Below are positions 17,510 through 19,550 of a DNA stretch of 64,000 nt, one piece after another (position 1 is the first letter of the stretch; the number at the start of each line of letters is the position of its first letter). The stretch is from the human T2T-CHM13v2.0 reference genome, Homo sapiens. A program made the position numbers and the translations under genes. Where the stretch lies: positions 34,592,001 to 34,656,000 of the forward strand of contig CP068257.2 in the NCBI GenBank assembly GCA_009914755.4, in the 5' to 3' direction. The notes under the pieces were generated by a model. It saw nothing but the letters and a program-made list of their open reading frames with translations, searched no databases and had not been told where the DNA came from.

Positions 17510-17840
17510 AATATGGTATGGTGGCTCACGTCTGTAATCCCAGCACTTTGGGAGGCCGAGGTGGGCGGATCACAAGGTCAGGAGATTGAGACCACCCTGG
17601 CTAACACGGTGAAACCCCGTCTCTACTAAAAAAAATACAAAAAGTTAGCCGGGTGTGGTGGCGGGCGCCTGTAGTCCCAGCTACTCAGGAGGCTGAGGCA
17701 GGAGAATGGTGTGAACCTGGGAGGCAGAGCTTGCAGTGAGCCGAGATCACACCACTGCACTCCAGCCTGGGTGACAGAGTGAGACTTCATCTCAAAAAAA
17801 TAAATAAATAAATAAATAAAATAAAATAAAATAAAAAAGA
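17510..17840 (+). mobile_element. Alu SINE, sense, with (AAAT)n/(AAAAT)n tail
   Basis: Alu consensus match plus tail microsatellite. Confidence 0.9.
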
Positions 17841-17852
17841 AAATTAATGTGG

Positions 17853-18165
17853 GTCAGGCACGGTGGCTCACGCCTGTAATTCCAGCACTTTGGGAGGCCA
17901 AGGTGGATGGATCACAAAGTCAGGAGATGGAGACCATCTTGGCTAACACGGTGAAACCCCATCTCTACTAAACATACAAAAAATTAGCCGGGCGTGGTGG
18001 TGGGCACCTGTAGTCCCAGCTGCTCGGGAGGCTGAGGCAGGAGAATGGCGTGAACCCGGGAGGCTGAGCTTGCAGTGAGCCGAGATCGCGACACTGCACT
18101 CCAGCCTGGGCGACAGAGCAAGACTCTGTCAAAAAAAAAGAAAGAAAGAAAGAAAGAAAATTAGT
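17853..18165 (+). mobile_element. Alu SINE, sense, with (GAAA)n tail; ends about 107 nt upstream of exon 9
   Basis: Alu consensus match. Confidence 0.9.
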
Positions 18166-18271
18166 GTGAAATTTATGCCCTAAAAAATTGAATTAGATGC
18201 CATTTTGAGATGCATTGTTTTTCTGATTGTGAACCAACATTGTGGGGTTAACCTACACGTTTATTTCACAG

Positions 18272-18463
18272 GAACTTTACTCTGAGGTGCAAACCCAGTA
18301 TCTCCCTCAGGTGCTCGGCTGCCTGGTGCAGCCTCTTGCTGAGGACATGGAGGCCTTAAGTTTACCTGAACTCACGCATGCCTTGAAGACGTGTTTCAAG
18401 GTGCTCAGCAAAGTCCAGATGCCTCCTTCCTACCTCGACACGGAGTCCACCAGCGGAACCTCG
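18272..18463 (+). CDS. DOP1B: coding exon 9 (192 nt, in-frame); encodes [64 protein letters not shown]
   Basis: acceptor tttatttcacag|GAACTT; donor ACCTCG|gtgtgt; phase 0 in and 0 out. Confidence 0.85.
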
Positions 18464-18627
18464 GTGTGTACTCTGAGGGGCAGAAATGGTTCTGGGGGCT
18501 AAAAGCAGCTTATGCCTTCCTGGGAGTAGAAAGTCTTTAGGGTTGGTTAGGATAGGAATAAAGATGAGAAGATACCCAGGTGATATGTCAAATATGCTTG
18601 TAAAACCCTCACTTTAAAAGGTTTTAG

Positions 18628-18765
18628 CACCTGGCATGGTACAATGGCTCACACCTGTAATACCAACACTTTCGGAGGCTGGGGCAGGAGGATTGCTTGA
18701 GCCCAGGAGTTCGAGACCAGCCTGGGCAACATAGCAAGCCTTCATCTCTCTACAAAATAAAAATT
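18628..18765 (+). mobile_element. FLAM-like monomer, sense
   Basis: GGCATGGTACAATGGCTCACACCTGTAATACCAACACTTTCGGAGGCTGGGGCAGGAGGATTGCTTGAGCCCAGGAGTTCGAGACCAGCCTGGGCAACATAGCAAG…. Confidence 0.7.
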
Positions 18766-19068
18766 AGGCCAAGTACAGTGGCCCACACCTGTAATCCCAG
18801 CACTTTGGCAAGCTGAGGCGGGTGGATCTCCTGAAGTCAGGAATTCAAGACCAGCCCAACCAACATGGCAAAACCCCATCTCTATTAAAAATACAAAAAT
18901 TAGCCAGGCATGGTGGCACATGCCTGTAGTCCCAGTTACTTGGGAGGCTGAGGCTGGAGAATCTCTTGAACCCGGGAGGCGGAGGTTGCAGTGAGCCATC
19001 ACGCCACTGCACTTAAGCCTGGGCAACAGAGCAAGACTCCGTTTCAAAAAAAAAAATAAATAAAAATA
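18766..19068 (+). mobile_element. Alu SINE, sense
   Basis: Alu consensus match. Confidence 0.9.
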
Positions 19069-19069
19069 A

Positions 19070-19400
19070 GGGCTGGGCGCGGTGGCTCACGCCTGTAATC
19101 CCAGCACTTTGGGAGGCCGAGGCGGGCAGATCATGAGGTCAGGAGATCAAGACCATCCTGGCTAACATGGTGAAACCCTGCCTCTACTAAAAATACAAAA
19201 AATTAGCCGGGTGCAGTGGCGGGCGCCTGTAGTCCCAGCTACTCAGGAGGCTGAGGCAGGAGAACAGCGTGAACCCAGGAGGCAGACCTTGCAGTGAGCC
19301 GAGATAGTGCCACTGCAGTCCAGCCTAGGCGAAAAAGTGAGACTCTGTCTCAAAATAAATAAATAAAATAAAATAAAATAAAATAAAATAAAATAAAAAG
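19070..19400 (+). mobile_element. Alu SINE, sense (Y-like, low divergence), (AAATA)n tail
   Basis: GGCTGGGCGCGGTGGCTCACGCCTGTAATCCCAGCACTTTGGGAGGCCGAGGCGGGCAGATCATGAGGTCAGGAGATCAAGACCATCCTGGCTAACATGGTGAAACCC…. Confidence 0.9.
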
Positions 19401-19550
19401 GCATGGTGGTGTTCACCTGTAGTTCCATCTACTCAGGAGGCTGAGGTGGGAGGATCGCTTGAGCCCAACAGGTTGAGGCTGCAGTGAGCCATGATTGCAC
19501 GGCTGCACTCCAGCCTGAGTGAGAGCAAGACCCTGTCTCTACAAAAAAAA
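19400..19550 (+). mobile_element. partial Alu (right arm), sense
   Basis: GCATGGTGGTGTTCACCTGTAGTTCC…GCCTGAGTGAGAGCAAGACCCTGTCTC with A tail. Confidence 0.8.

What the first reader, a model, noticed from the sequence alone, without database searches (positions are those of the whole stretch)
17510..19550. Exon 9 lies between two tandem arrays of same-orientation Alus, an NAHR-prone exon-deletion configuration
Exon 9 (18272-18463, 192 nt, in-frame) has two full sense Alus immediately upstream (17510-17840 and 17853-18165, ending about 107 nt before the exon). Downstream are four sense Alu or FLAM elements starting 165 nt after the exon (18628-19550). These are direct repeats about 300 bp long with above 80% identity on both sides, well under 1 kb from the exon. 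That is the classic substrate for Alu-Alu non-allelic homologous recombination, which here would delete an in-frame 64-codon exon.
Basis: partly seen in the sequence, partly recalled or inferred. Interest (0 to 1): 0.5.

Follow-up and report, generated by a model that had tools for sequence, protein, structure and literature searches.

The report
Ordinary Alu clusters flanking a DOP1B exon
A conserved 192-base coding exon of the human DOP1B gene sits between same-direction Alu repeats that could in principle recombine and delete it, but this layout is routine in Alu-rich genes and nothing here shows that such a deletion has happened.

Summary
A 192-nt, phase 0/0 coding exon (18272-18463) lies 107 nt downstream of two near-full-length sense Alus and 165 nt upstream of a 923-bp sense Alu block.

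Three corrections:
- The downstream block is three elements, not four. One old AluJ is split at its A-rich linker by nested AluSx and AluY/Sc-like insertions.
- Only the pairs involving the 19071 element exceed 80% identity (85-87%). The AluSx pairs are 78-80% and the AluJ halves 69-77%.
- "Exon 9" is not supported. It is the 8th exon visible in the window, and about exon 13 by a published DOPEY2 numbering.

The gene is DOP1B, shown by Pfam DOP1 domains and by exon geometry that matches circ_0001187.

The best cross-exon pair (17520 x 19071) has 87% identity and a 49-bp perfect tract. It is the best of 147 same-orientation pairs in the window, so it is a plausible Alu/Alu rearrangement substrate. 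Its perfect tract is far shorter than classical NAHR needs.

The layout is generic. The window is 35% Alu, 10 of 16 exons have a single-exon direct pair, and the genome holds about 78 million such pairs. No deletion was seen in the only two near-identical contigs found. Verdict: ordinary, already known, low interest.

The parts
16900..17180 (-). Antisense AluSx in the upstream intron. Forms a direct (-/-) pair with 20245-20534 across the exon, and inverted pairs with the sense Alus.
   Evidence: blastn to AluSx consensus: 88% over 281 bp. Direct repeat D5, 16919-17190 vs 20269-20540: 85%. Inverted repeats I3, I4, I8.
17194..17478 (-). Antisense AluJ-type element, 41 bp from the first sense Alu (a closely spaced inverted pair).
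   Evidence: 81.5% to AluJo. Inverted repeat I10: 74% complementary to 17641-17804.
17503..17515 (+). Target-site duplication, copy 1: GAAAATTAATATG.
   Evidence: The motif GAAAATTA[AG]T[AG]TG occurs only 3 times in the window, at 17503, 17839 and 18156. These bracket both upstream Alus.
17516..17838 (+). U1: sense AluY/Sc-lineage element, 5'-truncated by about 6-10 nt, with an (AAAT)n/(AAAAT)n tail.
   Evidence: 92.2% to AluY-type consensus positions 11-288. Alignment. Tail repeats.
17839..17851 (+). Target-site duplication, copy 2: GAAAATTAATGTG, between U1 and U2.
17852..18155 (+). U2: full-length sense AluY/Sc-lineage element with an A-run and (AAAG)n tail. It is followed by TSD copy 3 at 18156-18168 and ends about 107 nt before the exon.
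   Evidence: 91.3% to AluY-type consensus positions 1-288. Tail. TSD.
17658..17706 (+). 49-bp tract in U1 that is identical to 19216-19264 in D3. It is the longest perfect match of any same-orientation Alu pair in the window.
   Evidence: An exchange here would delete 1,558 bp including the exon.
18272..18463 (+). Coding exon of DOP1B. 192 nt, phase 0/0, 64 codons (ELYSEVQ...TSGTS). Lies partly inside the Pfam TPR_DOP1_M match.
   Evidence: cross-species conservation ends at the splice sites; phase-consistent 16-exon chain; Pfam.
18628..18766 (+). D1: left half of one AluJ (not a free left monomer). It ends in the A-rich linker.
   Evidence: D1 joined to D4 aligns colinearly to AluJo positions 12-289.
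18767..19068 (+). D2: full-length sense AluSx nested in the AluJ linker. Likely TSD AAATAAAAATTAG / AAATAAAAATAAG.
   Evidence: 85.8% to AluSx positions 1-289. Flanks shown.
19069..19399 (+). D3: full-length sense AluY/Sc-lineage element with an (AAAAT)n tail and an intact 26-bp core. Best partner of U1 and U2.
   Evidence: 90.6% to AluY-type consensus. Core has 0 mismatches. Tail.
19400..19550 (+). D4: right half of the same AluJ as D1.
20245..20534 (-). Antisense AluSx in the downstream intron. Inverted partner of D3, D2, U1 and U2, and direct partner of 16900-17180.
   Evidence: 89.7% to AluSx. Inverted repeats I1, I2, I6, I11 at 82-85% complementary.

Best explanation
This is a normal piece of an Alu-rich human gene.

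**What it is.** A constitutive, vertebrate-conserved coding exon of DOP1B (DOPEY2, chr21q22.12) has been surrounded by primate-specific Alu SINE insertions. These landed outside the roughly 100-165 nt of intron next to each splice site.

**Why the Alus are head-to-tail.** New Alus preferentially integrate into the A-rich tails and linkers of older ones.
- U1 and U2 share one target-site duplication.
- D2 and D3 are nested in the linker of an older AluJ.

**What it could do.** As a by-product, the exon is bracketed by direct Alu pairs. These are potential substrates for Alu/Alu-mediated rearrangement, which would leave one chimeric Alu.
- The result would be a deletion (or duplication) of about 0.9-1.6 kb containing the exon.
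- The mRNA would lose (or gain) exactly 64 codons inside the DOP1 middle helical-repeat domain.
- The likeliest route is microhomology-mediated template switching or single-strand annealing between diverged Alus, not classical NAHR.
- The most likely partner pair is 17520 x 19071.

**Shown versus inferred.**
- Shown: the anatomy, the identities, the reading frame, and the lineage-specific nature of the insertions.
- Inferred: that any rearrangement occurs, its mechanism, and its effect on the protein.
For: **Alu map and density.** 93 Alu hits cover 34.6% of the window.

**Element anatomy and TSDs.**

**Head-to-tail bias.** 11 of 13 adjacent Alu pairs are head-to-tail, and orientation runs of 4 or more are common.

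**Empty-site comparison.** An Alu-free homologous contig (L001) aligns colinearly to the Alu-stripped window.
- Window 16601-19939 corresponds to 970 bp in L001.
- The whole 18628-19550 block corresponds to 30 bp or less.

**Gene identity.**
- Pfam Dopey_N, TPR_DOP1_M and TPR_DOP1 (E = 1e-138) match a 1,439-aa stop-free 16-exon chain.
- Exons 38107-38218 and 38971-39159 total 301 nt and span 1,053 bp. This matches circ_0001187, reported as 'exons 20-21 of DOPEY2', chr21:37619814-37620866, 301 nt (PMC10243067).

**Pair identities and perfect tracts.**

**Local nulls.**

**Intact arrangement.** Two independent contigs at 99.7-99.8% identity carry it.

**Literature.**
- 78.3 million exon-spanning direct pairs exist, 17.6% predicted at risk. 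Younger AluS-AluY and AluY-AluY pairs and Alu density matter most (PMC6071635).
- Junction microhomology ranges 0-74 bp and averages 20 bp. Alus are too short and too diverged for the minimal processing segment (PMC13041450).
Against: - The U1-D3 pair is the single best same-orientation pair in the window: 99th percentile for identity and the longest perfect tract.
- The exon has more close direct pairs than about 97% of comparable positions. So the site is somewhat better than an average substrate.
- Population structural-variant data could not be consulted, so a real polymorphic deletion or duplication here is not excluded.
Subfamily calls (AluY versus AluSc/Sp) are therefore approximate.
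- The DOP1B assignment rests on exon geometry, with a possible 1-bp difference in span depending on the coordinate convention.
Confidence: 0.85

Rival explanations
1. One reading: this exon is a genuine hotspot where Alu-Alu NAHR recurrently deletes the exon in human germlines or somatic tissue.
For: - There are four full-length direct pairs within 1 kb on each side.
- The U1-D3 pair is 87% identical with a 49-bp perfect tract, the best in the window.
- The 26-bp Alu core is intact in D3 and has 1 mismatch in U1 and in U2.
- AluY-type pairs and high Alu density are the features enriched in known events (PMC6071635).
Against: - No deletion allele was observed, though only two near-identical contigs were found; both are intact.
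- The elements are 8-9% diverged from consensus. By inference they have coexisted for tens of millions of years.
- A 49-bp tract is far below the NAHR minimal processing segment.
- The configuration is shared by most exons in this window and by millions of pairs genome-wide.
- The DOPEY2 CNVs reported in Alzheimer cohorts came from SNP arrays. No breakpoints are given in the text I read, and such SVs were later also seen in non-AD samples.
Confidence: 0.07
2. The relevant effect is at the RNA level. Inverted Alu pairs across the exon base-pair in the pre-mRNA and promote back-splicing (a 192-nt single-exon circRNA), exon skipping, or A-to-I editing. The inverted pairs are antisense 16900-17478 with sense 18767-19399, and sense 17516-18155 with antisense 20245-20534.
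For: - Cross-exon inverted repeats of 200-234 nt at 77-85% complementarity exist: I2, I3, I5, I6.
- DOP1B is a known circRNA host. circ_0001187 arises from the two exons at 38107-39159 of this same window.
Against: - Each flanking intron also contains its own inverted Alu pairs: I4, I8, I10 upstream and I1, I7 downstream.
- By established knowledge (competition among inverted repeat Alus), such within-intron pairs compete with cross-exon pairing.
- No back-splice or skipping evidence for this exon was found in the papers read.
- This configuration is equally generic in Alu-rich genes.
Confidence: 0.12
3. The two upstream Alus are not independent insertions. They are a tandem duplication of one Alu plus its target-site duplication (period about 339 bp), which would itself be a past Alu-level rearrangement at this site.
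For: - Three copies of the same 13-bp TSD motif bracket U1 and U2, and the motif occurs nowhere else in the window.
- U1-U2 is the most similar same-orientation pair in the window at 88.3%.
Against: - The tails differ in motif: (AAAT/AAAAT)n versus (AAAG)n.
- U1 is 5'-truncated while U2 is full length.
- The shared differences from consensus are CpG transitions, which recur independently.
- A second insertion into the same endonuclease site gives the same TSD-Alu-TSD-Alu-TSD layout.
Confidence: 0.2

Closest known systems
Alu/Alu-mediated rearrangement (AAMR) substrate pairs, as catalogued by Song et al. 2018 (AluAluCNVpredictor) and in Alu-rich disease genes such as SPAST
   Same: - Same-orientation Alus of the younger S/Y lineages flank an exon at kilobase distance in a very Alu-dense gene.
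- Predicted deletion sizes (0.9-1.6 kb) fall in the observed range.
- A tract of tens of bp of identity is available as junction microhomology.
   Different: - No rearrangement, chimeric Alu or breakpoint has been observed here. In that paper's terms it is a control (candidate) pair, not a CNV-Alu pair.
- In the literature I read, DOP1B's Mendelian link is a single-family recessive candidate, so clinical ascertainment is unlikely.
Classical NAHR between low-copy repeats (segmental duplications)
   Same: Directly oriented paralogous sequences flank a unique segment. The expected products are reciprocal deletion and duplication.
   Different: - The repeats are 300 bp and 78-87% identical, with a perfect tract of at most 49 bp.
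- That is far below the length, identity and minimal processing segment associated with NAHR.
Nested or head-to-tail Alu clusters formed by insertion into A-rich tails and linkers
   Same: - An AluJ is split at its linker by two younger Alus.
- Two Alus share one TSD.
- 11 of 13 adjacent pairs in the window are head-to-tail.
   Different: Nothing notable. This is the textbook pattern.
Inverted-repeat Alu-flanked circRNA exons (for example circ_0001187 from DOP1B exons 20-21)
   Same: Inverted Alus are present in both introns flanking the exon, in the same host gene.
   Different: No back-splice evidence exists for this exon, and strong within-intron inverted pairs compete.

Membership tests
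Alu SINE (dimeric, 7SL-derived, primate-specific) | About 280-300 bp similar to Alu consensus across both monomers | tested here: met
   - U1 92%, U2 91%, D3 91% to the AluY-type consensus.
- D2 86% to AluSx.
- D1+D4 align colinearly to AluJo positions 12-289.
Alu SINE (dimeric, 7SL-derived, primate-specific) | 3' A-rich tail and flanking target-site duplications | tested here: met
   - Tails: (AAAT)n, (AAAG)n and (AAAAT)n.
- TSD GAAAATTA[AG]T[AG]TG occurs three times around U1 and U2.
- AAATAAAAAT[TA]AG lies around D2.
- The TSD of D3 is ambiguous in A-rich sequence.
Alu SINE (dimeric, 7SL-derived, primate-specific) | Absent from orthologous sites of non-primates | tested here: met
   Contig L001 has no Alu hit and 80.7% nucleotide identity over the exon and its downstream flank. 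It aligns colinearly to the Alu-stripped window, and the Alu blocks collapse to 30 bp or less and about 141 bp. The species of L001 is unknown.
Candidate AAMR pair (test-set criteria of Song et al. 2018) | Same orientation, spans at least one exon, less than 250 kb apart | tested here: met
   Four +/+ full-length pairs lie 0.92-1.56 kb apart, and one -/- pair lies 3.35 kb apart. All span only exon 18272-18463. Criteria are quoted.
Proven CNV-Alu pair / AAMR event | Sequenced breakpoint inside a chimeric Alu, with copy-number change of the intervening segment | not testable with these tools
   No structural-variant database is available. The only two near-identical public contigs found (L002, L003) carry the intact arrangement.
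Classical NAHR substrate | Uninterrupted identity at least as long as the minimal efficient processing segment (hundreds of bp) within long, highly identical repeats | tested here: not met
   The longest perfect tract is 49 bp and the best identity is 87% over about 281 bp. The requirement is as stated in PMC6071635 and PMC13041450.
DOP1B (DOPEY2) gene | DOP1-family domain architecture encoded on the + strand | tested here: met
   Pfam matches on the spliced 1,439-aa chain:
- Dopey_N, E = 1e-13
- TPR_DOP1_M, E = 1.6e-09
- TPR_DOP1, E = 1.4e-138, profile positions 2-375 of 375
DOP1B (DOPEY2) gene | Paralogue-specific identity (DOP1B, not DOP1A) | tested here: met
   - Two consecutive exons of 112 + 189 = 301 nt span 1,053 bp.
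- They match the published circ_0001187 (DOPEY2 exons 20-21, 301 nt, chr21:37619814-37620866).
- The span is 1,052 or 1,053 bp depending on the coordinate convention.
- No direct sequence comparison with a named DOP1B record was possible.
Inverted-repeat-Alu-driven circRNA exon | Complementary inverted Alus in both flanking introns | tested here: met
   Inverted repeats I2, I3, I5 and I6 cross the exon at 77-85% complementarity over 187-234 nt.
Inverted-repeat-Alu-driven circRNA exon | Observed back-splice junction | not testable with these tools
   No RNA data are available, and the papers read mention no circRNA from this exon.

The most novel reading that the evidence does not exclude
The 17520 x 19071 Alu pair (87% identical, 49-bp perfect tract, the best in the window) has generated a rare or recurrent deletion or duplication of about 1.56 kb in human populations. 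This would produce an in-frame DOP1B isoform lacking or repeating 64 residues of the middle helical-repeat domain. It could be a hypomorphic allele relevant to the recessive DOP1B eye phenotype or to the DOPEY2 CNV signals reported in Alzheimer cohorts.
Probability: 0.05. Interest if true: 0.25.

Novelty: already known. Interest (0 to 1): 0.08.

Why it matters
It matters little beyond annotation.

If a deletion were found here, it would be one more Alu/Alu-mediated single-exon CNV. In the literature I read, DOP1B's Mendelian link is a single-family recessive candidate (Peters anomaly).

The practical value is a precise map for anyone interpreting a small CNV or an exon-skipped transcript at this DOP1B exon:
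- the exon is in frame;
- the most likely breakpoint pair is 17520 x 19071;
- the downstream 'four elements' are one split AluJ plus two nested Alus.

The general lesson for the scan is that in a 35%-Alu window almost every exon carries this 'risk configuration'. It should not be flagged on its own.

Tried and rejected
- **Exon peptide against PDB and Pfam.** No hits. The 1,439-aa chain against PDB also gave no hits, so no structure-based naming was possible.
- **Protein database search.** It returned only unnamed genomic ORFs. These were useful for the exon boundaries but not for the gene name.
- **DOP1B RT-PCR primers from PMC7700884.** Absent from the window. This is expected, because they lie in exons upstream of the window, so the result is uninformative.
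- **Supplementary tables.** Those of PMC6071635 and PMC13041450 (gene risk scores, validated events) are not held. The supplement of PMC10243067 holds only legends and no primers.
- **Rfam.** It gave no family in the finding's interval. The two Metazoa_SRP hits elsewhere sit on Alus.
- **D1 as a free left Alu monomer (FLAM).** Rejected, because D1 and D4 join into one colinear AluJ.
- **Structure prediction plus AlphaFold-database search to separate DOP1A from DOP1B.** Considered but not run, since the circ_0001187 exon geometry already answered the question.
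Full report
**Observation**

Sequence context and exon:
- The window is primate (human-like) genomic DNA with 46.8% G+C.
- The interval 18272-18463 is 192 nt and open only in frame 0. It is preceded by a pyrimidine-rich tract ending in CAG and followed by GTGTGT.
- A protein search with the 64-residue peptide returned 25 unnamed genomic ORFs at 64-100% identity.
- In these ORFs, conservation begins immediately after the Q encoded by the acceptor CAG. It stops at the V encoded by the donor GT. 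This is the signature of a real, conserved coding exon with exactly these boundaries.

Upstream Alus:
- They lie at 17520-17800 and 17852/17857-18139 and are 91-92% identical to the AluY-type consensus.

Downstream block:
- 18628-19550 is entirely sense Alu sequence.

**Corrections to the anatomy**

The downstream block is three elements, not four:
- 18628-18766 and 19400-19550 are not separate FLAM or Alu fragments.
- Joined together, they align colinearly with AluJo positions 12-289, and the break falls in the A-rich linker.
- So one old AluJ was split by a nested AluSx (18767-19068). The likely TSD is AAATAAAAATTAG / AAATAAAAATAAG.
- An AluY/Sc-like element (19069-19399) then inserted next to it.

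The two upstream Alus share one TSD:
- GAAAATTA[AG]T[AG]TG occurs exactly three times in the window. The copies lie before U1, between U1 and U2, and after U2.
- This fits two insertions at one endonuclease site, or less likely a duplication of Alu plus TSD.

Subfamily:
- U1, U2 and D3 carry CCTGGCTAACA, where my AluY consensus has CCCGGCTAAAA.
- They may therefore be AluSc/Sp rather than AluY proper.
- They are 8-9% diverged from consensus, so they are old, fixed elements.

**Gene**

- Pfam places Dopey_N at the start of the window's coding ORFs and TPR_DOP1 (E = 4e-124) in a 1.6-kb exon.
- I chained 16 exons from 2437 to 39159 using simple splice scores and strict phase continuity. The chain gives a 1,439-aa stop-free product.
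- The product matches Dopey_N, TPR_DOP1_M and a now-complete TPR_DOP1 (profile positions 2-375 of 375, E = 1e-138).
- The two exons after the large exon are 38107-38218 and 38971-39159. They total 301 nt and span 1,053 bp.
- This matches circ_0001187, published as exons 20-21 of DOPEY2, chr21:37619814-37620866 (hg19), spliced length 301 nt (PMC10243067).
- I therefore take the gene to be DOP1B. The span is 1,052 or 1,053 bp depending on the coordinate convention.
- By that numbering the target exon would be about exon 13, if I missed no exon. It is the 8th exon visible in the window, so 'exon 9' is not supported.
- The exon encodes residues 265-328 of my chain. Residues 265-310 fall inside the TPR_DOP1_M match (100-310).
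- Both neighbouring junctions are phase 0. Loss or duplication of the exon is therefore cleanly in frame (...DVIPL|SPVKGEN...).

**How good a recombination substrate is it?**

Cross-exon pairs (repeat finder agrees):

| Pair | Identity | Longest perfect tract | Predicted deletion |
|---|---|---|---|
| U1-D3 | 87% | 49 bp (17658-17706 = 19216-19264) | 1,558 bp |
| U2-D3 | 84-85% | 20 bp | about 1.2 kb |
| U1-D2 | 78% | 20 bp | about 1.26 kb |
| U2-D2 | 79-80% | 14 bp | about 0.92 kb |
| Pairs with either AluJ half | 69-77% | 8-18 bp | not computed |
| Antisense pair 16900 x 20245 | 85-86% | 27 bp | about 3.35 kb |

Ranking and features:
- Among all 147 same-orientation full-length pairs within 5 kb in the window, U1-D3 ranks second for identity. 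Only U1-U2 is higher. It ranks first for tract length.
- The 26-bp Alu core is intact in D3 and has one mismatch in U1 and one in U2.
- The pair has the features enriched in proven events, namely younger S/Y-lineage elements and high Alu density (PMC6071635).

Mechanism:
- A 49-bp tract within a 300-bp repeat is well below the minimal processing segment thought to be needed for NAHR.
- Reported pathogenic junctions show 0-74 bp of microhomology, averaging 20 bp.
- Replication-based template switching or single-strand annealing is now favoured.
- 'NAHR-prone' should therefore read 'candidate Alu/Alu-mediated rearrangement substrate'.

**Is it more than the background?**

Only mildly.
- The window holds 93 Alu hits covering 34.6% of its length. 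The genome average is about 10% (PMC13041450).
- 29% of non-Alu 192-bp segments in the window have at least one direct full-length pair within 1 kb on each side. 76% have one within 2 kb. 3.3% have four or more within 1 kb, as the target does.
- Of my 16 exons, 10 have a direct pair that would remove only that exon, and 8 have one within 1 kb on each side. The smallest predicted single-exon deletions are 921 bp (target), 937 bp and 1,073 bp.
- Runs of four or more same-orientation Alus occur eight times in the window. 11 of 13 closely adjacent Alu pairs are head-to-tail. Insertion into A-rich tails and linkers predicts exactly this.
- Genome-wide, 78,291,946 same-orientation Alu pairs less than 250 kb apart span at least one exon. 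17.6% of them are predicted to be at risk.

**Related sequences**

- Two metagenome-derived contigs (L002, L003) match window 17317-19086 and 17752-19217 colinearly at 99.8% and 99.7%. These independent copies carry the intact arrangement.
- A contig from another species (L001) encodes a peptide 95% identical and contains no Alu.
- L001 aligns colinearly with the Alu-stripped window. Window 16601-19939 corresponds to 970 bp of L001.
- The 923-bp downstream Alu block collapses to 30 bp or less. The 1,550 bp between 16714 and 18265 collapses to about 141 bp.
- The Alus are therefore clean lineage-specific insertions. The intron next to the donor (18464-18611) remains alignable, at 73-86% per aligned block.

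**Other readings**

- Inverted Alu pairs also cross the exon: I2, I3, I5 and I6, at 77-85% complementarity over 187-234 nt.
- DOP1B is a circRNA host. Back-splicing, skipping or A-to-I editing are therefore conceivable.
- Each intron also has its own inverted pairs, which compete with cross-exon pairing. No RNA evidence was available.
- DOPEY2 CNVs reported in Alzheimer cohorts came from SNP arrays. SVs spanning the gene were later also found in non-AD samples. No breakpoints are given in the passages I read, so nothing links them to this exon.

**Verdict**

The site is a legitimate candidate substrate and locally the best one. It is also a generic feature of an Alu-rich gene, and no event has been observed.
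- It is an already known kind of thing and of low interest.

Noticed in passing
window 17503-17515, 17839-17851, 18156-18168: The same 13-bp target-site duplication (GAAAATTA[AG]T[AG]TG) brackets both upstream Alus in a TSD-Alu-TSD-Alu-TSD layout. The motif occurs nowhere else in the window. Either two Alus inserted at one endonuclease site, or an Alu plus its TSD was duplicated.
   Followed up: partly
window 17799-17835, 19055-19064, 19354-19397: The sense-strand tails of U1, D2 and D3 are (AAAT)n/(AAAAT)n microsatellites. They contain 8, 2 and 9 overlapping AATAAA hexamers, so they are potential intronic polyadenylation signals in the gene's orientation. They are also likely length-polymorphic.
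   Followed up: no
window 17194-17478 (-) and 17520-17800 (+): These two Alus form a tail-to-head inverted pair only 41 bp apart, about 74% complementary. Closely spaced inverted Alus are generally under-represented. At this divergence the pair is probably stable in DNA but would form dsRNA in the pre-mRNA.
   Followed up: no
window 38107-38218 and 38971-39159: These two exons (112 + 189 = 301 nt, span 1,053 bp) match the published circRNA hsa_circ_0001187 from DOPEY2 exons 20-21. This anchors the window to about hg19 chr21:37.58-37.65 Mb.
   Followed up: yes
window 49008-49113 (-): There is a full-length match to Rfam snoU13 (RF01210) at 86.4 bits against a gathering score of 46, antisense to DOP1B in an intron. 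It is probably one of the many dispersed U13-like copies.
   Followed up: no
window 46902-47047 (+) and 32101-32248 (-): Two Rfam Metazoa_SRP hits sit barely at the gathering score (70.8 and 70.7 against 70). Both lie on Alu elements found, so they are 7SL-derived Alu sequence, not SRP RNA genes.
   Followed up: yes
window 18461-18470: The exon's donor site (TCG|GTGTGT) scores below my heuristic threshold, unlike most other exons in the chain. It may be a weak donor that depends on the conserved downstream intron (18464-18611, 73-86% per aligned block to an Alu-free species).
   Followed up: no
window ~50730-50900 and ~32740-32780: A purine-rich GA/GGAA-type low-complexity tract and a run that translates as poly-Y appear in the ORF translations. 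The poly-Y run is a TA-rich trinucleotide repeat. Both are ordinary intronic microsatellites.
   Followed up: no
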